Program-made: the position numbers and the translations under genes | Notes under the pieces: model-generated | Told to the model about the DNA's origin: nothing | The model's input: only the letters and a program-made list of their open reading frames with translations | Database searches by the model: none | Part shown: positions 10,669 to 31,956 of the stretch, piece by piece | How the letters are laid out: each line of letters opens with the position of its first letter | Position numbering within the stretch: position 1 is the stretch's first letter | Virus record (IMG/VR): IMGVR_UViG_3300013232_000047 | Coordinates: 32,001 to 96,000 of that record | From: a virus | DNA: 64,000 nucleotides | Strand: one strand, 5' to 3'

Positions 10669-10803
10669 ATGACGACAATGAATTTAGCAGCGAACATTAA
10701 AGACCGGACAAGTATGAAGGGGTATCCCCTGCATAATTGGCAGGTGTTTGCTCCGTCATCGTTGTGTGTCCGTACGGAGGAACCAGTTGGGGTAGGCGGG
10801 TAG
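10669..10803 (+). CDS. Putative attenuator leader peptide (44 aa)
   Basis: MTTMNLAANIKDRTSMKGYPLHNWQVFAPSSLCVRTEEPVGVGG; last codons are complementary to the 5' arm of the downstream terminator. Confidence 0.7.
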   Translation: MTTMNLAANIKDRTSMKGYPLHNWQVFAPSSLCVRTEEPVGVGG

Positions 10804-10823
10804 GACACAGGAAAATACTTTCC

Positions 10824-10857
10824 AAAACCCGCTACCCGAAAGAGTAGCGGGTTTTTT
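10824..10857 (+). terminator. Intrinsic terminator of putative attenuator
   Basis: AAAACCCGCTAC-ccgaaaga-GTAGCGGGTTTTTT. Confidence 0.85.
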
Positions 10858-10985
10858 ATTTTCAGTTTATGCGCCGTAAGGCGACGAGAGCCGGGCCGAT
10901 AATCCGGTAAACAACCACCGTGAAGTAAACCTGTGGATGCTGAAAAGCAAATGGGTGTTTGTTCTTTAGTTAAGTTATACGATCC

Positions 10986-11285
10986 TTGCGCCGCAATCCA
11001 CATACTCTGGTGGACGGCGCAGGGGCCGTATTTACTTTTGTGAAACCAAGTATTGCAGCCGCAGCTATCCGTATAGGCGAACGAATTTTTGCTGGTAAAA
11101 CCCAGTTTGAGGCTGTCGGCAAGCTTGTCAGAACGCCCAATGTCAGTGCCGAGGAGAAAATCGAGATGCTACTAGCGGGCGAAGCCGGGTATGTTACCGA
11201 CGACGGCCAGTTCGTAAACACCGATGATGCTTACGAGATTTCGCGGCAAGCGGGTGTTGTTTCCAATGCGGGTGTAGCTCAATAG
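10986..11285 (+). CDS. Hypothetical phage protein (start uncertain)
   Basis: GYVTDDGQFV..DAY motif typical of small phage proteins; end overlaps tRNA-Gly. Confidence 0.5.
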   Translation: MRRNPHTLVDGAGAVFTFVKPSIAAAAIRIGERIFAGKTQFEAVGKLVRTPNVSAEEKIEMLLAGEAGYVTDDGQFVNTDDAYEISRQAGVVSNAGVAQ

Positions 11286-11341
11286 TAGAGCGCGTGCTTG
11301 CCAAGCACAGGACGACGGTGCGATACCGTTCACTCGCTCCA
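11268..11341 (+). tRNA. tRNA-Gly(GCC)
   Basis: Cloverleaf, loop TT-GCC-AA, encoded CCA. Confidence 0.9.
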
Positions 11342-11460
11342 ATTTTAGATCGTACGTTAAACCGGGAGTACTGCGATTAGCTATCGCAGGGTGGATGCGA
11401 AGGCCACACAGCTCAGGATCGGGGGTTGCAACCTCTGATCACTCTGGCCGGTCACTTTAT

Positions 11461-11536
11461 GGGGATATGGCGCGACAAGTAAGGCAGTTGCTTTGCAAGC
11501 AATTTCATGTGGGGGCGGTACCCACTATCTCCACCA
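11461..11536 (+). tRNA. tRNA-Ala(TGC)
   Basis: GGGGATA/TATCTCC acceptor with G3:U70, loop TT-TGC-AA, CCA. Confidence 0.85.
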
Positions 11537-12083
11537 CTGTTTTAGTAAGTGTAAACTTTCCTGTTTTGGTTAAAAAATGAAGTTCTAAATGACAGGTTGG
11601 GCACAGCACCTGTAGGTTTTTGGGTTTGTTATTTTTTCTATTTTTGTCTAGGTGGTGTACTTCTAGCACTTCTAAGTAACGGTTATATCCACATTTAGCA
11701 CATTTTGCACCATGCACGCGCAGTCCCACTTGTCTGTAAGCAGAGGCTCCTCCTTTAAAGTGCCGGAGAAGTTCTGGGTAATTTTCGGTACATTGTGCTT
11801 CGTCTCTGCATTTTCTGGAGCAAAAGTGTAATCCTGATTTGCTTAGACGTAGCCGTTTATTCGTTCGGTTAAAGTGTTTGCCACAAAGGCTGCATTCGAT
11901 TTGAACTTGTTTTTGGCTGTTTATTCCACTGCACTCTCTTGAACAGAATTTTTGAGCTAGAAAATGTTTTGGCACCCAAAAAGGTTTATCACAAATTTTA
12001 CAGCATTTTTGGTGCAGGTTTCTGGCTTTTCCATCGTAATCTTTAGACGTTTTAGCTTGCATCGTGTAGATATAACGTAGCAC
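11505..12083 (-). CDS. HNH homing endonuclease with zinc-finger repeats
   Basis: CxxC..FCSRxC repeats; CAKCG..LEVHHLDKNRKNNKPKNLQVLCPTCH. Confidence 0.9.
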   Translation of the reverse strand: MLRYIYTMQAKTSKDYDGKARNLHQKCCKICDKPFWVPKHFLAQKFCSRECSGINSQKQVQIECSLCGKHFNRTNKRLRLSKSGLHFCSRKCRDEAQCTENYPELLRHFKGGASAYRQVGLRVHGAKCAKCGYNRYLEVLEVHHLDKNRKNNKPKNLQVLCPTCHLELHFLTKTGKFTLTKTVVEIVGTAPT

Positions 12084-12184
12084 GCAAAGCCAGTCTTTTC
12101 CACCAATTTATGAGGTGGTAAACGTTAAAATAGTCGGTCGCAGGTGGAAATCCTGTTATCTCCACCATTTCGTGTAGTTAAGGC

Positions 12185-13252
12185 ATGGCAGCGATTATTC
12201 GATCCTACGGAAGGTCAGGCGTGAATCACATTCGTCCTGCGCCGGGAAGTTACTACCTTCGAGGTCCAGAGATTCGTGAGCCCTACATCCCACCGTATCC
12301 GCCACTTCCTGCACCTGTCGTGCCACCATCTCCGCCTTCAACGTTGCCCGTAGTCATTACAGGTGAAGTACGTTTGGAAGGTATTCCTTATGATTCTGCA
12401 GTGGTTGCCTTCAGTGGTTCCGGATCTGTGGTTACGGATTCTTTTGGAACTTATGTTGGAACGGTGAGCTATGGCTACACAGGCACATCTTCGCTTTCAG
12501 GCTTTGATTTGCCAGTGTATACGGTAACACCTTCTTATCGCAGCTATGCAGGTCTGTCTACGGATGTGGCAGGTCAGGACTTTGACGTTGACATCAACTT
12601 TCTCAATATTTCAGGAACCGTGACGGAGAATGGCACTGGATTTAGTGTTCCGATTACCAACGGTGCCGGGACGTGGGCAACGAGTTCAAATGGATCTTAC
12701 GGATACTACGTGCCGTATGGTTGGAGCGGATCAACTGTTCCTCTTTCTGGTAGCGGAACATTTTCTCCTGATTCGTATGTTTATGGTCCTGTTGGCATTG
12801 ATCATTCCAATCAGAATTTTGCATTCACAGCGTTTGCGCCTGTGCCGCCTACACCTTCTATTGTTGACTGGACATTCTACGGTCCCTACAGCCCGGCACC
12901 TGTGTCTAATGGGGACACCATGAATGAGGCTTTCATGACTGTGAACGCCGGTGCGTCATGGTTAACTGCAGGTCCTACTACCCATTCAGTTAAAAACGTA
13001 GGAGCGTCGCCGCTTACGATTACGGACGTTCAACTTGCGGGCACCGGCTGGACAATGGATCTGTGGGACTATACCAGCATGGTTCCGTTTGTTCCTCCTT
13101 CCGCGTTAAATGACATTCCTGCTGGAGCACCGTTCCTGTTTAATATCGTTTTGACAGCTTCTGGGACGGGCGGTTATTCGTCGGCAGTAGTCACGGTAAC
13201 GCATACAGGTTCTAACTCTCCTTATACTGTAAATCTTGAGCGCACAGCATGA
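12185..13252 (+). CDS. Beta-rich repeat protein, probable virion decoration protein; paralog of 23820-24488
   Basis: Repeats ISGTV..SNGSYG..YGWSGSTVP..GTFSP..NQNF; Gly/Ser/Thr rich. Confidence 0.7.
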   Translation: MAAIIRSYGRSGVNHIRPAPGSYYLRGPEIREPYIPPYPPLPAPVVPPSPPSTLPVVITGEVRLEGIPYDSAVVAFSGSGSVVTDSFGTYVGTVSYGYTGTSSLSGFDLPVYTVTPSYRSYAGLSTDVAGQDFDVDINFLNISGTVTENGTGFSVPITNGAGTWATSSNGSYGYYVPYGWSGSTVPLSGSGTFSPDSYVYGPVGIDHSNQNFAFTAFAPVPPTPSIVDWTFYGPYSPAPVSNGDTMNEAFMTVNAGASWLTAGPTTHSVKNVGASPLTITDVQLAGTGWTMDLWDYTSMVPFVPPSALNDIPAGAPFLFNIVLTASGTGGYSSAVVTVTHTGSNSPYTVNLERTA

Positions 13253-13948: not shown

Positions 13949-14025
13949 AGCCCTGTGGTGGAATTAGTAGACACATCCGACTTTGAATCGGACAATTGCA
14001 GGTGCGAGTCCTGCCGGGGCTGCCA
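13949..14025 (+). tRNA. tRNA-Gln(TTG)
   Basis: TCCGA-CTTTGAA-TCGGA, CCA. Confidence 0.9.
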
Positions 14026-14091: not shown

Positions 14092-14164
14092 ACGGAGGGC
14101 ATCAGCTGTGCAGACTGGTCTCCAAAACCGGTCGTGTCGAGAGCGTCACTCGAACTCCGTGCCA
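14092..14164 (+). tRNA. tRNA-Trp(CCA)
   Basis: CTGGT-CTCCAAA-ACCGG, CCA; atypical D arm. Confidence 0.8.
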
Positions 14165-14279: not shown

Positions 14280-14370
14280 GGTAGCGTGAGCCGAGCAGCG
14301 ATGGCAACAGACTGTAAATCTGTCACCCTCTGGGAAAACACCACTGGTGCGAGTCCAGTCGCTACCACCA
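14280..14370 (+). tRNA. tRNA-Tyr(GTA)
   Basis: ACAGA-CTGTAAA-TCTGT, long variable arm, CCA. Confidence 0.9.
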
Positions 14371-14861: not shown

Positions 14862-14939
14862 GGGACGTTAGCTCAGTCCAGTCAGAGCGCTCGCCTGTCT
14901 AGCGAAAGGCCACGGGAGCGAAGCCCGTACGTCCCGCCA
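14862..14939 (+). tRNA. tRNA-Asp(GTC)
   Basis: TCGC-CTGTCTA-GCGA, CCA. Confidence 0.88.
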
Positions 14940-14955: not shown

Positions 14956-15138
14956 ATGGCATTGACTGTACTCAAAGGTAAGAAGTTCAGTGTTTCTGTC
15001 AAATCGAAGGATAAGCGGCCAGATTACGTCAAAGTAGAACTGGTTGCAGGTGACAGAAGCCGAAAAGTATCACATCATCTTACACCGGCAGAGTGTAAGG
15101 TTTTTGCCTTCGCACTGCAGAAAGCCTCTAAAGCATGA
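14956..15138 (+). CDS. Small hypothetical protein
   Basis: 60-aa ORF after GTAGATAG motif, coupled to PAS gene. Confidence 0.55.
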   Translation: MALTVLKGKKFSVSVKSKDKRPDYVKVELVAGDRSRKVSHHLTPAECKVFAFALQKASKA

Positions 15139-15652: not shown

Positions 15653-15730
15653 CGAGCTGTAGCGTAGCCTAGTTAGCGCGTCTGTTTCGGGAACAGAAGG
15701 TCGTGAGTGCGAATCTCACCAGCTCGACCA
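15653..15730 (+). tRNA. tRNA-Pro(CGG)
   Basis: TCTGT-TTCGGGA-ACAGA, CCA. Confidence 0.9.
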
Positions 15731-16277: not shown

Positions 16278-16355
16278 CGGGGTGTAGCGAAGTTAGCCTA
16301 ACGCGCCTGATTTGGGGTCAGGAGATCATCGGTGCGAATCCGATCACCCCGACCA
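16278..16355 (+). tRNA. tRNA-Pro(TGG)
   Basis: CCTGA-TTTGGGG-TCAGG, CCA. Confidence 0.9.
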
Positions 16356-16361
16356 TTTTAT

Positions 16362-16438
16362 TGCTAGGTAGCTCAAATTAGTCGAGCGCGATATTGTTAA
16401 TATCGAAGATGTTGGTGCGAATCCGACCCTAGCAGCCA
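16362..16438 (+). tRNA. tRNA-Asn(GTT)
   Basis: CGATA-TTGTTAA-TATCG, CCA. Confidence 0.9.
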
Positions 16439-16862: not shown

Positions 16863-16938
16863 GCTCCCGTGGCCGAGTACACGAGGCATTCGCCTTCTGA
16901 GCGAATAAACGCAGGTGGGATTCCTGCCGGGAGTACCA
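16863..16938 (+). tRNA. tRNA-Arg(TCT)
   Basis: TTCGC-CTTCTGA-GCGAA, CCA. Confidence 0.88.
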
Positions 16939-16948: not shown

Positions 16949-17038
16949 GGAGGATTGGCTGAGTACTTAAAGCATCGGTCTTGAAAACCGAAGTCTGCCT
17001 TAAAAGCAGCGCAGGTGGAAATCCTGCATCCTCCGCCA
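16949..17038 (+). tRNA. tRNA-Ser(TGA)
   Basis: TCGGT-CTTGAAA-ACCGA, long variable arm, GCCA. Confidence 0.92.
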
Positions 17039-17189: not shown

Positions 17190-17277
17190 GGAAGATTGGC
17201 CGAGTCCAGTAAGGCACCGGCTTGGAAAGCCGGAGTCGTCGCAAGGCGCGTGAGAGCGAAGCTCACATCTTCCGCCA
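17190..17277 (+). tRNA. tRNA-Ser(GGA)
   Basis: CCGGC-TTGGAAA-GCCGG, long variable arm, GCCA. Confidence 0.92.
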
Positions 17278-17445: not shown

Positions 17446-17533
17446 GGAAGATTGGCCGAGTACTAAGGCTCCCGCCTCGAAAGCGGAGGACTAGGGTAAC
17501 CTAGCGCAGGTGGGATTCCTGCATCTTCCGCCA
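17446..17533 (+). tRNA. tRNA-Ser(CGA)
   Basis: CCGC-CTCGAAA-GCGG, long variable arm, GCCA. Confidence 0.9.
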
Positions 17534-18254: not shown

Positions 18255-18257
18255 TTT

Positions 18258-18382
18258 TGACGGGTCGAACTGAATACGGGTTATCATATGTAAAATGAAC
18301 AACGTGAGTTCAATTCTCACCCATGGCTCCAAATGCCATGGCCTTGGAGGTAAACACTCCGTGTCTAAAACCTTACCCGTCA
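18258..18382 (+). ncRNA. Y RNA-like (YrlA-like, T arm plus acceptor-like hairpin)
   Basis: CGGGTCGAA..GGTTATC..CTTACCCG closing stem; internal GTGAG-TTCAATT-CTCAC then CCATGGC-TCCAAAT-GCCATGG. Confidence 0.7.
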
Positions 18383-18387
18383 TTATC

Positions 18388-18463
18388 GGTCAGTTAGCTC
18401 ATTTGGTAGAGCAGCGTCTCGATAAGGCGCAGGCGGCTGGATCGTAGCCAGCACTGACCACCA
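18388..18463 (+). tRNA. tRNA-Ile(GAT)
   Basis: GCGTC-TCGATAA-GGCGC, CCA; C33. Confidence 0.85.
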
Positions 18464-18469: not shown

Positions 18470-18545
18470 GTCGGAGTAGCTCAGATGGAAGAGCAGAAGA
18501 CTGAAAATCTTCGTGTCACCAGCTCGAAACTGGTCTCCGGCACCA
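18470..18545 (+). tRNA. tRNA-Phe(GAA)
   Basis: GAAGA-CTGAAAA-TCTTC, CCA. Confidence 0.92.
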
Positions 18546-18616: not shown

Positions 18617-18695
18617 GTCCGTGAGCGCAAAGTCGTCGAGCGACCTGCCCTTCAAGCAGGAAATCTAAGGGGTGCGAGTCCCCTCACGGATACCA
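18617..18695 (+). tRNA. tRNA-Glu(TTC)
   Basis: CCTGC-CCTTCAA-GCAGG, CCA; C33. Confidence 0.82.
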
Positions 18696-18702: not shown

Positions 18703-18777
18703 GGCCCGTTCGGCTATCAGCTAGGCCATCGGATTCTCAATCCGGGAAAGCGAGGGCGGCACTCGCACGGGCTACCA
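18703..18777 (+). tRNA. tRNA-Glu(CTC)
   Basis: TCGGA-TTCTCAA-TCCGG, CCA. Confidence 0.88.
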
Positions 18778-21347: not shown

Positions 21348-21423
21348 GCTCCCGTAGCTCAGTTTATAGAGCGTCGCTTTCCTAGGGCGAATGTCGCTGG
21401 CGAGATCCCAGCCGGGAGTGCCA
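21348..21423 (+). tRNA. tRNA-Arg(CCT)
   Basis: TCGCT-TTCCTAG-GGCGA, CCA. Confidence 0.88.
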
Positions 21424-22125: not shown

Positions 22126-22201
22126 GCTCGCGTAGCTCAGTTTATAGAGCGCAGCCCTGCGAAGGCTGAGGTCGTTGGTGAGACTCCAACCGCGAGCACC
22201 A
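22126..22201 (+). tRNA. tRNA-Arg(GCG)
   Basis: CAGCC-CTGCGAA-GGCTG, CCA. Confidence 0.88.
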
Positions 22202-22869: not shown

Positions 22870-22943
22870 ATCCCGCTTGCATAATAGAAGTGCCTGAATC
22901 CTACAAATTCAAGGTGGCGGTGCGACTCCGTCGCGGGATACCA
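22870..22943 (+). tRNA. tRNA-Val(TAC)
   Basis: TGAAT-CCTACAA-ATTCA, CCA; C33. Confidence 0.82.
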
Positions 22944-22947: not shown

Positions 22948-23023
22948 GCCAGTATGCCTCAGCAGCTACAGGATTGGTTTTGTAAACCAATATTCGGCGG
23001 TGCGAGTCCGCCTACTGGCTCCA
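22948..23023 (+). tRNA. tRNA-Thr(TGT)
   Basis: TTGGT-TTTGTAA-ACCAA, CCA. Confidence 0.88.
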
Positions 23024-23026: not shown

Positions 23027-23103
23027 GTGGCCGTAGCTCAATTTAGCTAGAGCCGTGGATTGTGAATCCACCTATACGGATGCGAATTCCGTCGGCCACC
23101 CCA
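23027..23103 (+). tRNA. tRNA-His(GTG)
   Basis: GTGGA-TTGTGAA-TCCAC, C73, CCA; position -1 is T rather than G. Confidence 0.9.
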
Positions 23104-23107: not shown

Positions 23108-23182
23108 AGCCCGTTGGTCGAGTAGTAAGGCATCCGTCTGCAAAACGGAATTACGCTGGTGCGATTCCAGTACGGGCTTCCA
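23108..23182 (+). tRNA. tRNA-Cys(GCA)
   Basis: TCCGT-CTGCAAA-ACGGA, U73, CCA. Confidence 0.9.
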
Positions 23183-23557: not shown

Positions 23558-23632
23558 GCGGCATAGGTGCTGATAGACGCACGTGAGTTTTCCGAACTTG
23601 AGGAGTGGGCGCGATACCCACATGCCGCTCCA
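23558..23632 (+). tRNA. tRNA-Gly(TCC)
   Basis: TGAGT-TTTCCGA-ACTTG, GCG acceptor, U73, CCA. Confidence 0.82.
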
Positions 23633-23716: not shown

Positions 23717-23787
23717 CGCAGCAGGTCAAGTGACTGCGATGGTCCCATAAGCCGTCTAGCCCGGCGCGATACCGGGTGCTGCGACCA
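23717..23787 (+). tRNA. tRNA-Met(CAT), atypical
   Basis: ATGGT-CCCATAA-GCCGT, short D arm, CCA. Confidence 0.72.
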
Positions 23788-24494: not shown

Positions 24495-24570
24495 GCCTCC
24501 CTAGCTCAACTACTAGAGCATCTGGCTCTTAACCAGAATGTTGTGAGTGGAAATCTCACGGGTGGCACCA
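24495..24570 (+). tRNA. tRNA-Lys(CTT)
   Basis: TCTGG-CTCTTAA-CCAGA, CCA. Confidence 0.9.
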
Positions 24571-24573: not shown

Positions 24574-24645
24574 GCCGATACCGCCAGCGCGGATGCGAGT
24601 TCCGTAAACTTGCAGTGGTTGGAGCGACACCAACTATCGGCTCCA
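24574..24645 (+). tRNA. tRNA-Thr(CGT), atypical
   Basis: CGAGT-TCCGTAA-ACTTG, short D arm, CCA; C33. Confidence 0.72.
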
Positions 24646-24646: not shown

Positions 24647-24721
24647 GGGGGTGTAGCTCAACAGTAGAGCAGCGGAGAGACAATCCGAAGGTCGTTGGGG
24701 CGGCACCAACCATTCCCACCA
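24647..24721 (+). tRNA. tRNA-Val(GAC), atypical
   Basis: CGGA-GAGACAA-TCCG, CCA; G32/A33. Confidence 0.78.
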
Positions 24722-25228: not shown

Positions 25229-25304
25229 GCTCCCGTAGCTCAATTACTAGAGCAATTGTCTTCGGAACAATTGGTTGCAGGTGGGATTCCTGCCGGGAGT
25301 ACCA
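25229..25304 (+). tRNA. tRNA-Arg(TCG)
   Basis: ATTGT-CTTCGGA-ACAAT, CCA. Confidence 0.88.
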
Positions 25305-26305: not shown

Positions 26306-26389
26306 GGGGATGTGGTTTACCCAGAATAGCAGATGGGACTCATTCAGATTGAGACAGCCTTGGAGGTGCGATTCCTCTTATCCCCACCA
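26306..26389 (+). tRNA. tRNA-Leu(CAG), atypical
   Basis: CTCA-TTCAGAT-TGAG, expanded D region, short variable region, CCA. Confidence 0.65.
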
Positions 26390-26397: not shown

Positions 26398-26474
26398 GCC
26401 CACGTAGCCCAACAGCAAGAGGCGCTAGTTTTAGGAACTAGCTGTTGTCGGTGCGAATCCGACCGTGGGTACCA
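26398..26474 (+). tRNA. tRNA-Leu(TAG)
   Basis: CTAGT-TTTAGGA-ACTAG, short variable arm, CCA. Confidence 0.88.
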
Positions 26475-26480
26475 ATTTGT

Positions 26481-26555
26481 GCCCCCGTAGCCCAACGCAG
26501 AGGCAACGGGTTTAAGCTCCGTTAAGTGCAGGTTCAAGACCTGTCGGGGGCACCA
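26481..26555 (+). tRNA. tRNA-Leu(TAA)
   Basis: ACGGG-TTTAAGC-TCCGT, short variable arm, CCA. Confidence 0.88.
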
Positions 26556-26558
26556 TGA

Positions 26559-26636
26559 CGCGCCGTAGCCCAACTAGCAGGAGGCAGCAGTTTCAAAAAC
26601 TGAACAGTGCAGGTGCGAATCCTGTCGGCGCGACCA
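26559..26636 (+). tRNA. tRNA-Leu(CAA)
   Basis: CAGT-TTCAAAA-ACTG, short variable arm, CCA. Confidence 0.88.
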
Positions 26637-26670: not shown

Positions 26671-26717
26671 TTGACAGTTAAAACATGTTTGAATACATTG
26701 GTTGTGTTCTTTGAAAT
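26671..26717 (+). promoter_or_regulatory. Sigma70-type promoter followed by boxA-like element
   Basis: TTGACA-17-TACATT then GTTCTTTGAAAT at 26706. Confidence 0.75.
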
Positions 26718-26721: not shown

Positions 26722-26771
26722 GTTCCGAAAGCTCTCCAAGAGCCGTGGTTTAATTCCACATCGGAACACCA
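26722..26771 (+). ncRNA. Minimal tRNA-like RNA (acceptor, one hairpin, T arm, CCA)
   Basis: GTTCCGA/TCGGAAC-ACCA; GCTC-TCCAA-GAGC; GTGG-TTTAATT-CCAC. Confidence 0.6.
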
Positions 26772-26782: not shown

Positions 26783-26859
26783 CGCGGGGTGGAGCAGCCC
26801 GGAAGCTCGCGACGCTCATAACGTCGAGGTCACAGGTTCAAATCCTGTCCCCGCAACCA
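26783..26859 (+). tRNA. Initiator-type tRNA-fMet(CAT)
   Basis: CGCGGGG 5' end with C1:A72 mismatch, CT-CAT-AA, canonical TTCAAAT, CCA. Confidence 0.9.
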
Positions 26860-26978: not shown

Positions 26979-27063
26979 GGTCTCGTGCGCCTAACGGTAG
27001 GGCGGGGTTTACTTCCCCACGAAGTTTTACCCAGTGCTGGTTCGAATCCAGCTGAGACCACCA
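26979..27063 (+). ncRNA. tRNA-like RNA with extended non-anticodon arm
   Basis: Acceptor GGTCTCG/TGAGACC-ACCA, D arm, canonical T arm; central arm lacks a 7-nt anticodon loop. Confidence 0.65.
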
Positions 27064-27067: not shown

Positions 27068-27154
27068 GGGCGGTTAGTGACATTCAAATAGCACGTTGCG
27101 CCCCCGCAAGGGACGAGCGCAAAAGAGTCGGTGAAAAGCCGATGCCGTCCACCA
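27068..27154 (+). ncRNA. tRNA-like RNA with GCAA-capped central arm
   Basis: Acceptor GGGCGGT/GCCGTCC-ACCA; TTGCGC-CCC-GCAA-GGG-GCGCAA. Confidence 0.65.
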
Positions 27155-27215: not shown

Positions 27216-27472
27216 TGGGCCAAGATCATCAATTTGCCGAAAGGCACTGTAGATGTAGTCATTGAACTACTGGTGGAGGGCACCTGTAGTGCCCCCGAAA
27301 GTGCAGCGTTGTGTGACAACGCACATGGCGCTGCACACTCGATTTAGACAAGTAGTAGAGCCGTGTGGATGCGGCGACGGCACGTACCGTTGAATGCGGG
27401 TTCAACTCCCGCTACGAAAGTCTCGGTCTAAGCTCTAGATCGTAACTCAGGTGAAAGCCCTGAATGAGCCCA
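27216..27472 (+). ncRNA. Unknown structured RNA (~260 nt)
   Basis: Many hairpins, GAAA tetraloops, T-loop-like GCGGG-TTCAACT-CCCGC; no ORF. Confidence 0.5.
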
Positions 27473-27644: not shown

Positions 27645-28088
27645 GGGGCCGTAATGGTTTCGATTTACGAAAACTTACGGTTATGACATGTCGAGGATGG
27701 CTATCGGCCTCGTTAAGTAGTAGCCACAAGTCAAATGCTGACAACAGTGATGACAATATCCTGAACATCGACAGTTTGCTGGCTCAAGCAGAGTCCATCG
27801 TGAATAACGCGGACGAAGTGTTGGCCCAGTTTCCTGTCGAACAGGAACTTGCTGCAGCCTGAAGTGCTGTAGGCGGTGCAGTGGAGACTCCTGCTATCCA
27901 TTGTATCGCTAAACTAGCAGGGAAGTGTTCTACCGAGCACAGTCGGTGGGCTTGTCGATAAAGCTTAATCGAATCCTGCAGTTACTTTTTAGCTATTTAA
28001 AGCCTGCAGGTATAAAAATAGAGAAGCATGTGTAAGTAACCGGCGAGAGGTCGTAAAGAAAGGGGTTCGACTCCCCTCGGCTCCACCA
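27645..28088 (+). ncRNA. ssrA: tmRNA
   Basis: GGGGCCG..TTCGA 5' end, G3:U70, 3' GGGGTTCGACTCCCCTCGGCTCCACCA; tag frame 27737-27862 ending LAAA*. Confidence 0.95.
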
Positions 28089-28095
28089 TTTTTAA

Positions 28096-28222
28096 GGCTT
28101 GTGGGTCTAGAAGAGTAGGATTGCTATTAAGGGTGCTGCAACATCATGAGGCGTCCTCGGATAAGACGGCTGTAGGGTTACAGCTACAGATAAGTGAGGT
28201 TCGAATCCTCAACAAGCCATCA
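28096..28222 (+). ncRNA. tRNA-like RNA with multi-hairpin insertion
   Basis: Acceptor GGCTTGT/ACAAGCC, T arm TGAGG-TTCGAAT-CCTCA, ~70 nt structured centre, ends ATCA. Confidence 0.55.
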
Positions 28223-28435: not shown

Positions 28436-28578
28436 TAGCGGGTCGAAATCGTTGGTTATCACCAAACTGTTTGTCGAAGGTTCGAATCCTTCTCCCGGCT
28501 CCATATGCCGGGGTAGCTCAGTTGGCAGAGCAATAGTCTTCCCGAAAGGGAATTTCCGACGGTAAACCTTATCCGCTA
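28436..28578 (+). ncRNA. yrlA: YrlA-type Y RNA
   Basis: GCGGGTCGAA..CTTATCCGC closing stem enclosing T arm, closed acceptor-like stem CCCGGC-TCCATAT-GCCGGG and D arm TAGCTCAGTTGGCAGAGC; upstream of Ro60. Confidence 0.85.
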
Positions 28579-28663
28579 TACTTTATGCAGTCAGCCTGTT
28601 CTTTGGCTACATGTTTCTTGCTTCAGTGTAGCCTAACTTTTCAGACAGGCTGACTGCGCTATT

Positions 28664-28726
28664 TTGTCGGGTCGAACGTAAAGGGTTATCTCTAAAAATC
28701 GCCCTTTGCCACCACTTACCTGACAA
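28664..28726 (+). ncRNA. Short Y RNA-like
   Basis: GTCGGGTCGAA..GGTTATC..CTTACCTGAC. Confidence 0.7.
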
Positions 28727-28732
28727 GAGCTT

Positions 28733-28890
28733 AAAAGTGTCGAGAGACCGCGTGTCGCTGGTTCAATTCCAGCCGTGTTCGCAGTAGCTCAGCGGTAGAG
28801 CAGCGCCGGAAGCGTGTGTCGCAGGTTCAAATCCTGCCTGTAAATGAACATGTAGCTCAGTGGTAGAGCAGCGAGTTCTCTCGACATTTT
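28733..28890 (+). ncRNA. Nested double tRNA-mimic RNA
   Basis: TGTCGAGAGA/TCTCTCGACA closing stem; order T arm, D arm, T arm, D arm, all with canonical GG and TTC. Confidence 0.75.
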
Positions 28891-28906
28891 TTGTCGTTTT
28901 TTCTAG

Positions 28907-28941: not shown

Positions 28942-29304
28942 ATGAAAAGAATCTACCTAAGCAAAGCAGGTGAAGTAAGGATGCCGACTATCGACGAGCG
29001 TAGTCACTACGGAATGGCTAAAACTATTCTCGGTCCTTCTTGGGTAGGTGACACAGAAGATGCCTATACTGCTATGTGGCTGCTTGGCTGGGTGCGTGTA
29101 GCAGAATATGATGACACAGTTTACGCTGAAAAGTACATAAATGGAGAACCTGTAAAGTGGGTTGATCTTCCAAGAGCACAACGTGAATGGCTCGAAGACA
29201 GAAAGTTAGAAGGTAAGCAGGTCATGTGGAACGACACAGTGTTCGAGTCAACGCGTGAAGGAAAACAATTTGCAGGTGATATTGTTAAGGCTCTTTTGCA
29301 GTAA
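28942..29304 (+). CDS. Hypothetical protein
   Basis: 120-aa ORF; C-terminal DIVKALLQ motif. Confidence 0.7.
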   Translation: MKRIYLSKAGEVRMPTIDERSHYGMAKTILGPSWVGDTEDAYTAMWLLGWVRVAEYDDTVYAEKYINGEPVKWVDLPRAQREWLEDRKLEGKQVMWNDTVFESTREGKQFAGDIVKALLQ

Positions 29305-29320: not shown

Positions 29321-29410
29321 GCCAATGTGAGCTAACCTAAAGGCTACCGCGTCCCGGAGAAAGTCTGGACAAGCGCGGCAGTGAGGGCGAAACCCCCTCC
29401 ATTGGCTCCA
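29321..29410 (+). ncRNA. tRNA-like RNA with extended central arm
   Basis: Acceptor GCCAATG/CATTGGC-TCCA, T-like arm GAGGG-CGAAACC-CCCTC, long arm capped by GAAA-containing loop. Confidence 0.6.
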
Positions 29411-29515
29411 ATTTCCGACGGGTCACCAACTTACCTGTCGGGTCAGTAAACCGCAAACGGCCCTCGCAGGGGCTTACGCGAGTTGGAGCGACTGCACAGA
29501 AGGAGGCGCAAAATT

Positions 29516-31222
29516 ATGGGCGCTATCAAGGTTAGTTCGTTAAATACTTCCCGCCAGCAGGCGCGGAACAAGAACCTCTCAGTTCAACAGCCTATTCCAG
29601 ACAAGGGGCAAGTGCTTAACAGCACGGGTGGCTACGTCTGGCAAGCCAATGACTGGGATCTGCTCACTCGGTTTCTTATTCTCGGTGTCGAGGGCGGCAC
29701 CTACTACGTGAATGAGCCGGAACTGTTGAAGAGTAACACAGAAGCCGTAAAGCGTTGCATTCATACGCACGGTGTTCGCACTGTAAAGGAAATCGTAGAC
29801 GTGTCTGTAAATGGACGTGCCTATCGTAACGATCCGGCTATCTACGCATTGGCACTGGCTACCTATCTTGGAAATCAAAAGACCACAGAGGCTGCATACG
29901 CAGCTGTTCCTAACGTGTGTCGCACCGGCACTCACCTGTATCACTTCGCCATGTACTGCGACGCCCTCCGTGGCTGGGGTCGTGGTTTGAAGAAGGCAGT
30001 GGGCCGTTGGTTTACGTGTCAGGACGCTAATCGTCTGGCCTACCAGATGGTAAAGTATCAGCAGCGGGATGGTTGGTCTGCGGCAGACTTGCTGCGAAAG
30101 TCACATCCTGTTGCCGAGGACGCTGCTCAAGATGCGGTGTTTCGTTGGGTCGTTGCTGGAATGGATTGCCTTGGTGCCCGTCAGATCAAGCGCAAGTGCG
30201 GTTCTACGGAACTGATACATGACTACGCAGACGTGACGGCACATCTGCCAAAGTTTATCGAGGTGTTTGAGAAGGCCAAGACTGCCAGTGAGAAGGAACT
30301 GGTCAAGCTCATCCTTGACCATGGTCTTCCTCGTGAGGGCGTGCCAACGGAGAAGTTGAACAGCGTCGCTGTTTGGGACGCACTGCTCCAGAAGATGCCG
30401 CTCACGGCCATGATTCGTAACCTCGGAAAGATGACCAGTATCGGGCTGTTGAAGCCGATGTCCGAAGGTTCTAAGCTGGTAAGTGAGCGCCTTCGAGACG
30501 CTGATTACCTGAAGAAGTCTCGTGTTCATCCGATGGCGGTGCTTGTTGCGTCCAAGGTGTATGCAAACAACAAGGGCTTGAAGGGCAAGCTGACGTGGAA
30601 TCATGTTCCGCAACTCCTGACTGCGCTTGATGAGGCGTTCTACGCGACCTTTGGCAACGTTGTGCCTTCGGGCAAGGATATGCTAATCGCGCTGGATGTA
30701 TCTGGTTCCATGTCCAGTGCAATTGCGGGTAGCGTGATATCTTCTGCGGAAGCTGTTGCAGCTATGTCTTTGGTTTGGGCATCTACGGAGCCGTCGGTTC
30801 ACGTGTTTGGATTTGCTAACACGTTTCGTGATCTGGGTATCCGCAAGGGTATGTCACTCGCTGAGGCAACGCGCCGGGCGCAAGACTCGAACTTCGGTTC
30901 GACAGATGTTTCGCTGGCTTACCAGTTTGCGCTTGATAACCGCATCAAGGTTGGTGGATTCATCGTAATGACGGATAACGAAGTCAATAGTGGTCGGCAC
31001 CCTGCGCTGGCTTTGCGTGAATACCGTGAGCGCTTTGTCAGCGATGCGCGTAGCGTCGTGGTTGCTACAGCTGCAACCAGATTCACGATTAACGATCCTA
31101 CAGATAAGTGGGGTTTGGATGTATCCGGGTTCGACACCTCGGTGCCGAACGTAGTCACCGACTTTATCCGTGGTGAGCACGTAAAGGCTGAAATGGATGA
31201 AGAAGTTTCGGTTGAGGATTAA
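29516..31222 (+). CDS. rsr: Ro60/Rsr TROVE-domain RNA-binding protein
   Basis: NSTGGYVW..LTRFLILG.EGGTYY, RTGTHLYHF, RGWGR, KYQQRDGWS, MPLTAMIRNLG, vWA MIDAS LDVSGSM, TDNE; AGGAGG upstream. Confidence 0.96.
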   Translation: MGAIKVSSLNTSRQQARNKNLSVQQPIPDKGQVLNSTGGYVWQANDWDLLTRFLILGVEGGTYYVNEPELLKSNTEAVKRCIHTHGVRTVKEIVDVSVNGRAYRNDPAIYALALATYLGNQKTTEAAYAAVPNVCRTGTHLYHFAMYCDALRGWGRGLKKAVGRWFTCQDANRLAYQMVKYQQRDGWSAADLLRKSHPVAEDAAQDAVFRWVVAGMDCLGARQIKRKCGSTELIHDYADVTAHLPKFIEVFEKAKTASEKELVKLILDHGLPREGVPTEKLNSVAVWDALLQKMPLTAMIRNLGKMTSIGLLKPMSEGSKLVSERLRDADYLKKSRVHPMAVLVASKVYANNKGLKGKLTWNHVPQLLTALDEAFYATFGNVVPSGKDMLIALDVSGSMSSAIAGSVISSAEAVAAMSLVWASTEPSVHVFGFANTFRDLGIRKGMSLAEATRRAQDSNFGSTDVSLAYQFALDNRIKVGGFIVMTDNEVNSGRHPALALREYRERFVSDARSVVVATAATRFTINDPTDKWGLDVSGFDTSVPNVVTDFIRGEHVKAEMDEEVSVED

Positions 31223-31251: not shown

Positions 31252-31290
31252 AGAGCGCCCCGGCGAAAGCTCGGGCGCTCTGTTCTATTT
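31252..31290 (+). terminator. Terminator-like hairpin after rsr
   Basis: AGAGCGCCC..GAAA..GGGCGCTCT then T-rich tail. Confidence 0.7.
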
Positions 31291-31296
31291 AAGCGT

Positions 31297-31611
31297 ATGA
31301 ACGCATCAATAAGTTTTCAGGATTGTGAAAGAAAAAGTCCGCCCGTGAATTATCCGATCATGTTTCTGGACGCTAAACCGTCTGGGATTGATCTTAAATT
31401 CAGCAAAGAAACCGATCCACGCAGCCGTCGTCCTAACGTCTACACTGTTTCTTTGACGCCAGCTGTTAAGATGGGCGAGTGGAACAATGTCGAAGGCGAC
31501 GAAGGCGACATTGAACAAGTGCAGTCTACAAAGCTTCCGCAAGGTACCCGAGTTGAAGGCATTTGGTGCGAAGCCGGGGAGCGACGCATCGTGGTGCTAG
31601 AATACGTTTGA
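31297..31611 (+). CDS. Hypothetical protein
   Basis: 104-aa ORF after TATTTAAG motif. Confidence 0.6.
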   Translation: MNASISFQDCERKSPPVNYPIMFLDAKPSGIDLKFSKETDPRSRRPNVYTVSLTPAVKMGEWNNVEGDEGDIEQVQSTKLPQGTRVEGIWCEAGERRIVVLEYV

Positions 31612-31616
31612 TTTTT

Positions 31617-31704
31617 GGAGGATTGCTAGAGTACTAATAGGCCGACCTGCTAAGTCGAGGCCGTCGTAAAAGGCGCACAGGTGGAAATCCTGTATCCTCC
31701 GCCA
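31617..31704 (+). tRNA. tRNA-Ser(GCT)
   Basis: CGAC-CTGCTAA-GTCG, long variable arm, GCCA. Confidence 0.9.
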
Positions 31705-31711
31705 TTTTAGT

Positions 31712-31789
31712 GGACCCGTAGCTCAATGTTTAGAGCACCAGACTCATAATCTGCGAGGTTGTGGGTGCGAATCTCCACCGGGTCCACCA
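31712..31789 (+). tRNA. tRNA-Ile2 or Met (CAT)
   Basis: CAGA-CTCATAA-TCTG, CCA. Confidence 0.85.
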
Positions 31790-31791
31790 AC

Positions 31792-31876
31792 GGGCACGTG
31801 GCTAAGAGGGAATTAGCAGACCCCTGAGCTTGAGAAGTTCAGAACCTTGGGAGTGCGAGTCTCCCCGTGCCCACCA
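31792..31876 (+). tRNA. tRNA-Leu(GAG), atypical
   Basis: TGAGC-TTGAGAA-GTTCA, expanded D region, short variable region, CCA. Confidence 0.75.
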
Positions 31877-31882
31877 ATTTTC

Positions 31883-31956
31883 GCCTTGCAAGCATTAAAG
31901 TGATGCAGCGCGCTTTTAACGCGCAGAACACGGAGCGTTACCGTGGCGGGGCACCA
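31883..31956 (+). tRNA. tRNA-Lys(TTT)
   Basis: GCGCG-CTTTTAA-CGCGC, CCA. Confidence 0.85.

What the first reader, a model, noticed from the sequence alone, without database searches (positions are those of the whole stretch)
10669..31956. Integrated translation-rescue island: sensor, rewired tRNA set, tmRNA, Ro60 and tRNA mimics
Seen: every RNA gene over 21 kb is on the + strand; 38 tRNAs cover all 20 amino acids and mostly carry a non-canonical elbow, whereas several non-decoding mimics near rsr (26979, 28096, 28436, 28733) keep the host-like TTC T-loop. Inference: functional tRNAs are made unrecognisable to an elbow-reading nuclease while mimics present the vulnerable surface as decoys. An alternative is that a phage enzyme destroys canonical host tRNAs and spares phage ones.
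Basis: inference. Interest (0 to 1): 0.8.

Follow-up and report, generated by a model that had tools for sequence, protein, structure and literature searches.

The report
Stall-sensing phage island of rewired tRNAs
An uncultured freshwater phage carries a 21-kb block of RNA genes: a full set of 38 transfer RNAs, most built with a different but matching "elbow", plus a likely translation-stall switch, a ribosome-rescue RNA and a Ro60 protein with its partner RNAs. The likeliest purpose is to keep phage protein synthesis going when host transfer RNAs are attacked or run short.

Summary
The 49 best tRNA-like matches all lie on the + strand between 11268 and 31956. I count 38 decoding tRNAs covering all 20 amino acids. 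Of these, 34 have G55 instead of U55, paired with A18 instead of G18, and 19-56 covaries. Only initiator-like Met and Leu(UAA) keep U54-U55-C56.

All six tRNA-rich phage types (window included) lack that triplet in most tRNAs; one type mostly uses A54 instead. The new loop matches the riboswitch T-loop consensus (YGNRA plus an intercalating A). It lacks the U54-U55 that a published anti-phage T-loop nuclease (Cash) requires.

The "sensor" is a conserved leader ORF with a terminator and an antiterminator. The leader peptide holds all 20 amino acids in three phages.

The canonical "mimics" are YrlA-like Y RNAs next to Ro60, which is a known partnership. The decoy idea is not supported. Two other non-decoding tRNA shapes beside rsr are rewired, and in relative G006 the orthologous Y RNA and the tmRNA are rewired too. 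I found no phage nuclease candidate.

Function remains inferred; no host or RNA data exist. This scan has already noted A18/G55 elbows in at least 75 other genomes. I found no paper describing them.

The parts
10669..10803 (+). Leader ORF: 44 codons plus TAG, with all 20 amino acids and 37 different codons
   Evidence: Homologous ORFs head the island in G001 (58 aa, or 42 aa from the second ATG; both have all 20 aa), G006 (62 aa, 20 aa), G011 (43 aa, 19 aa) and G010 (39 aa, 18 aa).
10789..10800 (+). Antiterminator segment: the last codons of the leader ORF, complementary to the 5' arm of the terminator
   Evidence: Duplex energy -19.4 kcal/mol. The same pairing has different letters in five other phages, at -16.8 to -21.4 kcal/mol. 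The minimum-energy fold of the free RNA forms this pairing.
10824..10862 (+). Intrinsic terminator: 12-bp stem followed by a T run
   Evidence: It is the first site listed in the 20-kb scan. Weak sub-threshold likeness to Rfam Trp_leader: 21.9 bits against a cut-off of 41.
10866..10930 (+). Conserved two-hairpin RNA element after the terminator; function unknown
   Evidence: Alignment of G000, G001 and G006 shows compensatory changes in both hairpins. No Rfam match.
11268..11341 (+). tRNA-Gly(GCC); T-loop TGCGATA, D-loop AATAGTA
11461..11536 (+). tRNA-Ala(UGC) with G3-U70; T-loop GGCGGTA
11505..12083 (-). HNH endonuclease (192 aa)
   Evidence: Pfam HNH and phrog_1271, E 3.5e-23.
12114..12167 (+). 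tRNA-like fragment: T arm TGGAAAT, acceptor-like stem, CCA
   Evidence: R1 19.4 bits.
13949..14025 (+). tRNA-Gln(UUG); TGCGAGT
14092..14164 (+). tRNA-Trp(CCA); short D arm; T-loop AGCGTCA
   Evidence: R1 24.2 bits. Missed by ARAGORN and Rfam.
14280..14370 (+). tRNA-Tyr(GUA); long variable arm; TGCGAGT
14862..14939 (+). tRNA-Asp(GUC); AGCGAAG
15653..15730 (+). tRNA-Pro(CGG); TGCGAAT
16278..16355 (+). tRNA-Pro(UGG); TGCGAAT
16362..16438 (+). tRNA-Asn(GUU); TGCGAAT
16863..16938 (+). tRNA-Arg(UCU); T-loop TGGGATT with D-loop ..TAC.. (19-56 = C-G)
16949..17038 (+). tRNA-Ser(UGA); TGGAAAT
17190..17277 (+). tRNA-Ser(GGA); AGCGAAG
17446..17533 (+). tRNA-Ser(CGA); TGGGATT
18255..18385 (+). Y-like RNA 3: GGTCGAA..GGTTATC motif and T arm TTCAATT, 10 kb from rsr
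   Evidence: Motif pair. Fold z-score -4.16. R1 18 bits.
18388..18463 (+). tRNA-Ile(GAU); ATCGTAG (A54-U58 swap; GG kept)
18470..18545 (+). tRNA-Phe(GAA); CTCGAAA (C54; GG kept)
18617..18695 (+). tRNA-Glu(UUC); TGCGAGT
18703..18777 (+). tRNA-Glu(CUC); GGCGGCA
21348..21423 (+). tRNA-Arg(CCU); CGAGATC with D-loop AGTTTATA (56 = A)
22126..22201 (+). tRNA-Arg(GCG); TGAGACT with D-loop AGTTTATA
22870..22943 (+). tRNA-Val(UAC); TGCGACT
22948..23023 (+). tRNA-Thr(UGU); TGCGAGT
23027..23103 (+). tRNA-His(GUG); TGCGAAT
23108..23182 (+). tRNA-Cys(GCA); TGCGATT
23558..23632 (+). tRNA-Gly(UCC); CGCGATA
23717..23787 (+). Atypical tRNA: anticodon read as CAU, C33, short D arm; CGCGATA
   Evidence: R1 30.3 bits. 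Assignment made by eye.
24495..24570 (+). tRNA-Lys(CUU); TGGAAAT with D-loop AACTACTA
24574..24645 (+). Atypical tRNA: anticodon read as CGU (Thr-like), C33, short D arm; AGCGACA
   Evidence: R1 34.6 bits. Assignment made by eye.
24647..24721 (+). tRNA-Val(GAC)-like with A33; GGCGGCA
25229..25304 (+). tRNA-Arg(UCG); TGGGATT with D-loop AATTACTA
26306..26389 (+). tRNA-Leu(CAG), long-D-loop Leu type; TGCGATT, D-loop ..AATAG..
   Evidence: R1 31.8 bits. Read by likeness to G001 Leu tRNAs.
26398..26474 (+). tRNA-Leu(UAG), short variable loop; TGCGAAT
26481..26555 (+). tRNA-Leu(UAA); TTCAAGA (keeps UUC; D-loop has no GG)
26559..26636 (+). tRNA-Leu(CAA); TGCGAAT
26722..26771 (+). Mini tRNA-like RNA: 7-bp acceptor stem, two hairpins, ACCA
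   Evidence: Fold z-score -5.23. Preceded by the motif GTTCTTTGAAA.
26783..26859 (+). Initiator-like tRNA-Met (C1xA72); canonical GG / TTCAAAT
   Evidence: The same gene sits next to tmRNA in tRNA-poor G004.
26979..27063 (+). tRNA shape with canonical elbow (GG / TTCGAAT) and an odd anticodon arm (loop UUUACUU, 4-bp stem); decoding doubtful
27068..27154 (+). Non-decoding tRNA shape with CCA; rewired T-loop TGAAAAG
   Evidence: R1 31.4 bits; fold z-score -3.03.
27355..27415 (+). RNA with canonical T arm (TTCAACT)
   Evidence: Weak: fold z-score -0.37.
27645..28088 (+). tmRNA with canonical T-loop TTCGACT. Tag ORF 27737-27862 encodes 41 aa ending ELAAA
   Evidence: Rfam RF00023, 107 bits against a cut-off of 47. 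Tag read by alignment to the consensus and translation.
28093..28216 (+). RNA with closing stem and canonical T arm (TTCGAAT)
   Evidence: The fold is no better than shuffles, z-score -0.30.
28436..28578 (+). Y RNA 1 (YrlA-like): closing stem with GGGUCGAA, T arm TTCGAAT, acceptor-like helix, D arm with GG
   Evidence: Rfam YrlA 32.8 bits, below the cut-off of 69, covering model positions 23-85. Fold z-score -3.42. Orthologues in G001 and G006.
28662..28728 (+). Y RNA 2: minimal form with the GGGUCGAA and GGUUAUC motifs
   Evidence: Fold z-score -3.68.
28733..28905 (+). RNA with two canonical T arms and two canonical D arms, ending in a terminator-like hairpin
   Evidence: Rfam tRNA 44.2 bits and YrlA 32.2 and 29.5 bits. 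Fold z-score only -1.33.
28942..29304 (+). ORF of 120 aa with no family; not found in relatives
29321..29410 (+). Non-decoding tRNA shape with CCA; rewired T-loop CGAAACC; 73 nt upstream of rsr
   Evidence: R1 30.5 bits; fold z-score -2.61.
29483..31222 (+). Ro60 (rsr) homologue, 579 aa
   Evidence: Pfam TROVE 3.2e-40 and vWA_Ro60 1.3e-44. 62% identical in G001/G003 and 52% in G006.
31297..31611 (+). ORF of 104 aa downstream of rsr; conserved in G001/G003 (34% identity); no family
31617..31704 (+). tRNA-Ser(GCU); TGGAAAT
31712..31789 (+). tRNA-Met/Ile2(CAU), elongator type; TGCGAAT
31792..31876 (+). tRNA-Leu(GAG), long-D-loop Leu type; TGCGAGT
31883..31956 (+). tRNA-Lys(UUU); AGCGTTA (A54-U58, G55)
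32359..33003 (+). HNH endonuclease right after the last tRNA; marks the island's end
   Evidence: phrog_16726, E 2e-16. Present after the last tRNA in all six tRNA-rich phage types and in 0 of 4 tRNA-poor ones.

Best explanation
The window is half (CheckV estimate 53%) of an uncultured phage with a T4-type capsid. Between its DNA ligase gene and a cell-wall hydrolase gene sits a variable island read from one strand.

Shown by the sequence:
- The island starts with a short leader ORF whose last codons can pair with the 5' arm of a strong terminator.
- It holds 38 tRNA genes for all 20 amino acids. In 34 of them the elbow contact G18-U55 is replaced by A18-G55, and 19-56 stays a Watson-Crick pair of any kind.
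- It also holds a canonical initiator-like tRNA, a tmRNA, three to four YrlA-like Y RNAs and Ro60.

Inferred:
1. The leader works as a transcription attenuator. A ribosome that reaches the stop codon covers the antiterminator, so the terminator forms. A ribosome stalled on any of the roughly 20 kinds of codon leaves the antiterminator free, so the island is transcribed. The tRNA supply would therefore be turned up when charged tRNA of any kind runs short.
2. The rewired T-loop (Y-G-N-R-A with an intercalating A) keeps the fold but removes U54-U55. The phage tRNAs would then escape host factors that read the T-psi-C loop, most plausibly T-loop tRNA nucleases of the Schlafen/Cash or CdiA-CT E479 kind. 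They would also not be modified by TrmA or TruB.
3. Ro60 with its Y RNAs is an ordinary Ro60 particle for RNA quality control or trimming, recruited to some tRNA-rich phages. It is not a decoy set.
For: Rewiring is real and structural.
- 34 of 38 window tRNAs have G55.
- In 154 strictly parsed tRNAs from six phages, among those with C56, G55 goes with a D-loop AG and no GG in 87, GG in 4 and neither in 3. U55 goes with GG in 28 and AG in 1 (Fisher p = 5.7e-22, not corrected for relatedness).
- A D-loop purine followed by the complement of base 56 is present in 124 of 127 (C56), 13 of 15 (G56), 8 of 9 (A56) and 3 of 3 (U56).
- Arg(UCU) orthologues show AC/GG, GC/UG, AG/GC and AU/GA.
- Across 150 tRNAs the model's 20 helix pairs and the added 19-56 pair together are 96.6% paired, and every one of them covaries.
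- The same A/G55 switch also occurs in the tmRNA of G006 and G013 and in the Y RNA of G006.
- The fold has a precedent: FMN and cobalamin riboswitch T-loops are YGNRA, with an intercalating adenosine that bonds to G at position 2 (bioRxiv 10.1101/2022.12.26.521914, passages).

Evasion is plausible.
- CbCash cuts 5' of U55, and single U54 or U55 mutations abolish cleavage. Its authors leave open whether phage tRNAs are targeted (PMC13462974).
- Relative G001 mostly uses A54 instead, or TTG, TTA or TCC.
- The tRNAs of tRNA-poor relatives (7 of 8 by a loose scan) and of the control phage Alice (19 of 22) keep TTC.

Leader.
- ORF-end/terminator-arm duplexes of -16.8 to -21.4 kcal/mol occur in six phages with different letters.
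- All 20 amino acids are present in the three leaders of 44, 58 (or 42) and 62 aa. Random expectation is 0.015, 0.09 and 0.12.

Y RNAs and Ro60: and PMC4201824.
Against: - No expression, charging or cleavage data exist, and the host is unknown.
- The initiator-like tRNA, Leu(UAA), tmRNA, Y RNAs and an amber-suppressor tRNA outside the window keep canonical elbows. A nuclease that cuts every UUC T-loop would still cripple initiation and rescue in this phage.
- The leaders of G011 and G010 have 19 and 18 kinds of amino acid, not 20. The G013 leader has no ATG in the part examined.
- In six-frame ORFs of 40-65 aa, all 20 amino acids are not very rare: 9 of 199, 9 of 431 and 4 of 420.
- No Shine-Dalgarno sequence is visible before the leader ATG.
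- The covariation statistics count related genes as independent.
- Ro60 is found in only three of six tRNA-rich phage types, so it is not an integral part of the island.
Confidence: 0.45

Rival explanations
1. Neutral or hitch-hiking design. The YGNRA/A18 elbow is simply an equally good way to build a tRNA. It arose once in a mobile tRNA cassette and spread with it. The tRNAs serve codon usage or host range, and no nuclease is involved.
For: The alternative loop is a common, stable RNA motif. The island is a variable cassette at a fixed locus, with a homing-type HNH gene at its end in all six tRNA-rich phage types. Several window tRNAs look relaxed (C33, A33, short D arms). The scan saw the same design in at least 75 other genomes.
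Against: Close relatives reach the absence of U54-U55-C56 by different routes (G55, A54, C55, 19-56 swaps). Unrelated RNAs switched too: tmRNA in G006 and G013, and the Y RNA in G006. This looks directional rather than inherited from one ancestor. The control phage Alice keeps TTC in 19 of 22 tRNAs.
Confidence: 0.25
2. Phage offence. The phage makes an enzyme that destroys canonical host tRNAs through their T-psi-C elbow, and its own rewired set is immune.
For: A complete 20-amino-acid set makes the phage independent of host elongator tRNAs.
Against: By tblastn at E <= 1e-5, only Ro60 and the HNH gene at 32359-33003 are shared with at least two other tRNA-rich genomes and found in 0 of 4 tRNA-poor ones. 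No Schlafen (PF04326) match in G000, G003, G006, G010 or G009. The other island proteins are orphans or unrelated enzymes. The phage's own initiator tRNA, tmRNA and Y RNAs would be hit. G000 is only 53% complete, so a gene could lie outside it.
Confidence: 0.12
3. Decoy model. The canonical-elbow mimics near rsr soak up an elbow-reading nuclease while the rewired tRNAs do the decoding.
For: At least five non-decoding RNAs with canonical T arms cluster at 26.9-28.9 kb. Five copies of the motif G[TC]TCTTTGAA lie in that stretch, at 26706, 27483, 27632, 28341 and 28422; those at 26706, 27632 and 28422 sit just upstream of mapped RNA 5' ends. This hints at separate expression.
Against: These RNAs match the YrlA module, whose family consensus is canonical anyway. 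The orthologous Y RNA in G006 is rewired. Two non-decoders beside rsr are rewired. Ro60 and Y RNAs are missing from three of six tRNA-rich islands.
Confidence: 0.08
4. DNA-level selection. The conserved T-arm DNA of tRNA genes is a target for homing endonucleases or for recombination with host tRNA genes. T-loop changes escape this, and D-loop changes then compensate in the RNA.
For: Two HNH genes flank the island, and one is conserved at its end in all tRNA-rich relatives.
Against: The change is concentrated on two or three tertiary-contact bases rather than on a long recognition site. TTCGAA-type T arms persist in neighbouring RNA genes.
Confidence: 0.05

Closest known systems
tRNA, tmRNA and Ro60 sets of Bixzunavirus mycobacteriophages (Bxz1/Alice type)
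   Same: Large tRNA array, tmRNA among the tRNAs and a Ro-like protein in one phage. Y RNAs next to phage Ro60 were reported by Chen et al. 2014 (PMC4201824, passages).
   Different: Alice keeps TTC in 19 of 22 tRNAs and has no G55. Its Ro60 lies about 30 kb from the main array. Ro60 is only 42% identical. The capsid here is of the T4 Gp23 type.
Rsr/Ro60 with YrlA Y RNAs (Rfam RF02553)
   Same: TROVE plus vWA protein. Adjacent RNAs have a closing stem and a tRNA-like module of T arm, acceptor-like helix and D arm.
   Different: Scores of 29.5-32.8 bits are below the family cut-off of 69, and only the tRNA-like module aligns. There are three to four RNAs of different build, one of them 10 kb away. 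In G006 the module has the A18/G55 elbow.
Phage tRNAs that evade tRNA-targeting defences (T5 tRNA-rich region against retron-Eco7 and PARIS; anticodon-loop variants in mycobacteriophages)
   Same: Phage-borne tRNAs that replace or outlast host tRNAs under nuclease attack (PMC11555353, passages. I saw van den Berg 2023 and Burman 2024 only as references cited there).
   Different: Those cases concern single tRNAs and the anticodon loop or expression level. The words T-loop and elbow occur 0 times in PMC11555353. Here a whole set is changed at the elbow.
CRISPR-associated Schlafen nuclease Cash, and CdiA-CT E479
   Same: Both cut the T-loop at the U54-U55 step that the phage tRNAs lack.
   Different: Neither is known from this phage's unknown host. 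Nothing has been tested on phage tRNAs.
T-loop/receptor motif of FMN and cobalamin riboswitches (YGNRA plus intercalating A)
   Same: Same five-base consensus, and the same partner base as U/C54-G55-N56-R57-A58 with A18.
   Different: It was described in riboswitches. That paper states that tRNA T-loops differ by having U at the second position.
Leader-peptide attenuators (trp, his, thr operon leaders)
   Same: Short ORF, intrinsic terminator, and an alternative pairing that depends on ribosome position. Weak Trp_leader likeness.
   Different: There is no run of one regulatory codon; instead 18-20 kinds of amino acid occur in 39-62 codons. It controls an RNA-gene island in a phage. Only two alternative helices are evident.

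Membership tests
tRNA (Rfam RF00005) | Score at or above the gathering cut-off of 29 bits | tested here: met
   29 of 38 decoders reach it in the E-value search of 10000-33000. 9 of 38 do not: 14092, 18617, 18703, 22870, 23558, 23717, 24574, 26306 and 31883. Those nine were found with R1 or the stem scan.
tRNA (canonical bacterial elongator) | Cloverleaf with covarying helices and a 7-nt anticodon loop with U33 and R37 | tested here: met
   Over 150 tRNAs of six phages, 96.6% of cells are paired and all helix pairs covary (the alignment is fitted to the model). 35 of 38 window tRNAs have U33; three do not.
tRNA (canonical bacterial elongator) | Invariant elbow bases G18, G19, U54, U55, C56 | tested here: not met
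   34 of 38 have G55 with A18. Only 2 of 38 keep U54-U55-C56.
tmRNA (RF00023) | Full-length match above the cut-off; tag ORF ending in a stop; tRNA-like ends with CCA | tested here: met
   107 bits against 47, covering model positions 1-374. 41-aa tag ending ELAAA. ARAGORN did not call it.
Ro60 / TROVE | TROVE domain followed by the Ro60 vWA domain | tested here: met
   139.1 and 152.5 bits, both above the curated cut-offs.
YrlA Y RNA (RF02553) | Score at or above the cut-off of 69 bits over the whole model | tested here: not met
   Best scores are 32.8, 32.2 and 29.5 bits, covering model positions 23-86 only. G001 gives full-length matches of 39.9 and 35.9 bits, also below the cut-off.
YrlA Y RNA (RF02553) | Encoded next to rsr, with a tRNA-like module of T arm, acceptor-like helix and D arm inside a closing stem | tested here: met
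   28436-28578 lies 905 nt upstream of rsr, and its fold shows all parts.
YrlA Y RNA (RF02553) | Binds Ro60 | not testable with these tools
   No protein-RNA test is available. The GGUCGAA motif in the closing stem resembles the Ro-binding strand only by my recall.
Leader-peptide transcription attenuator | Short translated ORF, terminator and a mutually exclusive antiterminator | tested here: inconclusive
   All three parts are present and covary in six phages. Neither translation nor regulation is shown. Rfam Trp_leader scores 21.9 bits, below its cut-off of 41.
Anti-defence phage tRNA | The phage tRNA resists the host nuclease that cuts the host counterpart | not testable with these tools
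   The only support is the sequence argument from published U54 and U55 mutants.

The most novel reading that the evidence does not exclude
The island is a self-contained, stall-induced back-up translation supply. A leader peptide that samples nearly every amino acid senses a shortage of any charged tRNA, for example after a host T-loop nuclease fires. It then switches on a complete tRNA set whose elbow is rebuilt on the riboswitch-type YGNRA/A18 plan, so that the nuclease and the host's T-loop modification enzymes cannot read it. In some relatives the tmRNA and Y RNA have been converted to the same plan.
Probability: 0.3. Interest if true: 0.9.

Novelty: new variant of a known kind. Interest (0 to 1): 0.77.

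Why it matters
G18, G19, T54, psi55 and C56 are treated as near-universal in tRNA. This phage lineage replaces them wholesale with a matched alternative while keeping the cloverleaf.

If these tRNAs work, three things follow:
- The elbow's base identity is not needed for translation itself. It is kept in cells for other readers.
- Phages exploit that freedom, probably against T-loop nucleases whose effect on phage tRNAs is an open question in the literature.
- Standard tRNA finders under-count such genes. ARAGORN found 23 of the 38 decoders here.

The conserved leader that holds nearly all amino acids would be a new kind of attenuator. It would report general translation stress rather than one amino acid, and it is easy to test with a reporter. 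Orthogonal, nuclease-proof tRNA scaffolds would also be useful tools.

Tried and rejected
- Near-identical DNA in named phages: none. The tubulin-like protein hits only Bacillus phage G at 24% identity.
- Rfam on the leader region: nothing above threshold.
- Expression: no RNA holder listed. Four DNA runs hold 5-12% of the sampled words. I did not lay reads.
- Gene-content comparison for a nuclease tied to tRNA-rich phages: only Ro60 and an HNH gene came out.
- RtcB (PF01139) and Schlafen (PF04326): no match in G000, G003, G006, G010 or G009.
- Pfam and PHROGs on 41 different window ORFs: island proteins are HNH, receiver domain, PAS, cupin, GT34, tubulin-like and a TylF methyltransferase. The 355-, 326-, 248-, 228- and 184-aa ORFs have no family and no homologue in relatives.
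- TTCGAA restriction-site avoidance: considered as a cause and dropped, because the site persists in neighbouring RNA genes.
- Orthologue test between G000 and G001: tRNAs with the same anticodon are only 71-85% identical, so this was weaker than hoped. Position 55 differs in 7 of 9 pairs, against 55 of 216 acceptor and T-stem positions.
- 19-56 on the model-fitted alignment: only 68% paired, because D-loops of different length are misaligned. I therefore relied on my own parse.
- The loose scan includes false rows. The strict parse dropped tRNAs without U33/R37, without an encoded CCA, or with fewer than 19 of 20-21 possible stem pairs, so it leaves out about a third of the R1 matches.
- Literature: searches found no paper describing A18/G55 phage tRNAs or a leader attenuator ahead of phage tRNA genes.
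- Supplements were closed. The Cash U54/U55 mutant gels (its Supplementary Fig. 5f,g) and Chen 2014's list of phage YrlA were not seen.
- Not used: structure prediction, complex prediction, atlas search, large protein searches.

Full report
**What the window is.** The window is bases 32001-96000 of a 120,022-bp phage record with 49% G+C. CheckV estimates it at 53% complete. It has no near-identical named relative. Its major capsid protein is of the T4 Gp23 type. That protein has 52 related loci in IMG/VR at 31-97% identity. G+C of the seven related records assembled in full ranges from 52 to 68%, against 49% for the window's record.

**Checking the observation.**
- ARAGORN finds 24 tRNA genes, all on the + strand. 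Rfam finds a tmRNA at 27645-28088 (107 bits) and, in the E-value search, 30 tRNA matches at or above 29 bits.
- Many T-loops looked odd, so I scanned for stem patterns with an encoded CCA. I also built a covariance model from 28 window tRNAs. With filters off, its 49 best matches (E <= 0.28) all lie on the + strand between 11268 and 31956.
- Reading each by hand gave 36 decoders plus five odd tRNA shapes. Two of the odd ones (26306, 31792) have the long-D-loop build of the Leu tRNAs of relative G001. They read as Leu(CAG) and Leu(GAG).
Three are atypical at position 33.
- G55 replaces U55 in 34 of 38. Ile has ATC and Phe has CTC. Only Leu(UAA) and the initiator-like Met keep TTC.

**The rewiring is a matched change of tertiary contacts.**
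- In the window, T-loops with C56 go with a D-loop AG, those with G56 go with AC, and those with A56 have a T available.
- I parsed 154 CCA-encoding tRNAs strictly in six phages. Among those with C56, G55 goes with AG-not-GG in 87, GG in 4 and neither in 3. U55 goes with GG in 28 and AG in 1. The Fisher p-value of 5.7e-22 is not corrected for relatedness.
- A purine followed by the complement of base 56 is present in the D-loop in 124 of 127, 13 of 15, 8 of 9 and 3 of 3 tRNAs for C56, G56, A56 and U56.
- Arg(UCU) genes, three of them with the same acceptor stem, show four different matched solutions in four phages.
- The cloverleaf itself is under strong structural constraint. Over 150 tRNAs, 96.6% of cells are paired and all helix pairs covary. 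This alignment is fitted to the model.

**Relatives.**
- R1 finds 14-44 tRNAs in G001, G003, G006, G010, G011, G013 and G014. It finds 0-2 in G002, G004, G005, G007, G008, G009, G012 and G015. G009 is complete with terminal repeats and has none.
- By the strict parse, G55 occurs in 17 of 20 tRNAs in G006, 21 of 23 in G010, 19 of 22 in G011 and 32 of 32 in G013. It occurs in 0 of 31 in G001.
- G001 instead uses mostly A54 (ATC), or TTG, TTA or TCC with matching D-loops. Its four Leu tRNAs keep TTC.
- By a loose scan, 7 of 8 tRNAs in tRNA-poor relatives have TTC.
- In the control phage Alice, which also has tRNAs, tmRNA and Ro60, 19 of 22 tRNAs have TTC and 3 have ATC.
- The tmRNA T-loop is canonical in G000, G003, G004 and G011. 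It is GGCAGTG in G006 and CGCGACT in G013, each with AG replacing GG at the 5' end.
- The G006 orthologue of Y RNA 1 has T-loop TGCAAAT and D-loop AATCAGCA.
- The switch has therefore happened in three kinds of RNA, which argues against simple inheritance from one ancestral tRNA gene.

**Structural sense.** In FMN and cobalamin riboswitches the T-loop consensus is YGNRA (UGNRA 88.7%, CGNRA 10.9%). An adenosine intercalates between positions 4 and 5 and bonds to G at position 2. That paper contrasts this with tRNA's UUCRA (bioRxiv 10.1101/2022.12.26.521914, passages). The phage loops U/C54-G55-N56-R57-A58 with A18 fit this plan. That the geometry is the same in these tRNAs is my inference.

**Who reads U54-U55?**
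- CbCash, a CRISPR-associated Schlafen nuclease, cuts tRNAs mainly in the T-loop, 5' of U55 in the UUC motif. Single U54 or U55 changes abolish cleavage. The authors state that it is open whether phage tRNAs are targeted (PMC13462974, passages).
- CdiA-CT E479 cuts between T and pseudouridine in the T-loop (review PMC9086364, passages).
- Phage tRNAs that counter tRNA-cutting defences are known, but for anticodon loops or for expression level (PMC11555353, passages).
- From general knowledge, TrmA and TruB would also lose their target bases.
- Evasion of a T-loop reader therefore fits best. It explains why either position 54, 55 or 56 is changed. It remains untested.

**The sensor.**
- At 10669-10803 lies a 44-codon ORF with all 20 amino acids and 37 different codons. 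A strong terminator follows at 10824-10862.
- The last codons (10789-10800) pair with the terminator's 5' arm at -19.4 kcal/mol. The free RNA prefers that pairing.
- The region is homologous in G001 and G006. G011, G010 and G013 have the same arrangement ahead of their first tRNA.
- All six have an ORF end complementary to the terminator arm, with different letters.
- The leaders of G001 (58 aa, or 42 aa from the second ATG) and G006 (62 aa) also contain all 20 amino acids. G011 has 19 of 20 and G010 has 18 of 20. The G013 ORF has no ATG in the part examined.
- Random peptides of 44, 59 and 62 residues with this phage's composition hold all 20 in 1.5%, 9% and 12% of trials. Six-frame ORFs of 40-65 aa do so in 9 of 199, 9 of 431 and 4 of 420.
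- I read this as a ribosome-position attenuator: efficient translation to the stop codon gives termination, and stalling gives read-through. Neither translation nor regulation is shown.

**Ro60 and the mimics.**
- The 579-aa protein has TROVE and Ro60-vWA domains. Its best named relatives are mycobacteriophage Ro-like proteins at 42% identity, among 356 phage records with a match.
- Upstream lie RNAs with a closing stem containing GGGUCGAA, then GGUUAUC. In Y RNA 1 these are followed by a T arm, an acceptor-like helix and a D arm.
- Rfam YrlA matches only the tRNA-like module, at 29.5-32.8 bits. This is below the cut-off of 69, so I call them YrlA-like, not members.
- A third copy of the motif pair is at 18262. 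G001 has two YrlA-like RNAs, and a Ro60 that is 62% identical in the same order: initiator tRNA, tmRNA, Y RNA, Ro60.
- Chen et al. 2014 reported YrlA-like RNAs next to Ro60 in more than 250 bacterial and phage species, with tRNA-like domains recognised by TruB, DusA, RNase P and the CCA enzyme (PMC4201824, passages).
- The canonical elbow of these RNAs is thus a family trait. It is not kept in G006. Two other non-decoders next to rsr are rewired. The decoy reading is therefore weak.

**Co-occurrence.**
- The island lies between the ligase and cell-wall hydrolase genes in G000, G003, G006 and tRNA-poor G004. G004 holds only the initiator tRNA and tmRNA there.
- Across the six tRNA-rich phage types, the leader is present in 6, the HNH gene after the last tRNA in 6, tmRNA in 5 (not G010) and Ro60 in 3 (G000, G001/G003, G006).
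- Ro60 is in 0 of 4 tRNA-poor genomes. The other island proteins are not conserved.
- The block is a real, recurring assembly, but Ro60 is an optional passenger.

**Verdict.**
- The decoy half and the phage-offence alternative lack support.
- Earlier notes of this scan report the same A18/G55 design in at least 75 other genomes. My literature searches found no description of it.

Noticed in passing
window 26706, 27483, 27632, 28341, 28422 (+ strand): The motif G(T/C)TCTTTGAA(A/G) occurs five times within 1.7 kb at 0-1 mismatch. It lies 2-9 nt upstream of the 5' ends of the mini tRNA-like RNA, the tmRNA and Y RNA 1. The only other hit of that quality in the window is at 44407. It may be a promoter or a processing signal, and it suggests unannotated RNAs starting near 27495 and 28355.
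   Followed up: partly
window 10866-10930: A conserved two-hairpin element follows the leader terminator directly, with compensatory changes in G000, G001 and G006. It has no Rfam match.
   Followed up: partly
window 27737-27862: The tmRNA tag reading frame encodes 41 residues (ADNSDDNILNIDSLLAQAESIVNNADEVLAQFPVEQELAAA). By my recall this is much longer than usual bacterial tags.
   Followed up: no
G000 genome 4837-4912 (outside the window): A tRNA with anticodon CUA (amber suppressor; ARAGORN labels it Pyl) has a canonical GG/TTCGATT elbow. G010 has one too. The window's genes read normally under table 11, so its role is unclear.
   Followed up: no
window 26398-26636: Three Leu tRNAs (UAG, UAA, CAA) have short variable loops. 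By my recall bacterial tRNA-Leu has a long variable arm. Two other Leu tRNAs (26306, 31792) have an extended D-loop and a 9-nt variable region.
   Followed up: partly
window 20190-21320 (-): A tubulin/FtsZ-like GTPase (376 aa) lies inside the tRNA island. It is 57-68% identical in the tRNA-poor relatives G004, G005 and G009, and was not found in the tRNA-rich ones searched.
   Followed up: no
window 14374-14850 (-) and 15135-15584 (+): A response-regulator receiver domain protein and a PAS-like protein are encoded among the tRNAs.
   Followed up: no
L068:1126-1202 (G001): The initiator-like tRNA of G001 has T-loop TTGGAAT with D-loop ..CCGCAA (19-56 = C-G). In that phage even the initiator lacks U54-U55-C56.
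   Followed up: partly
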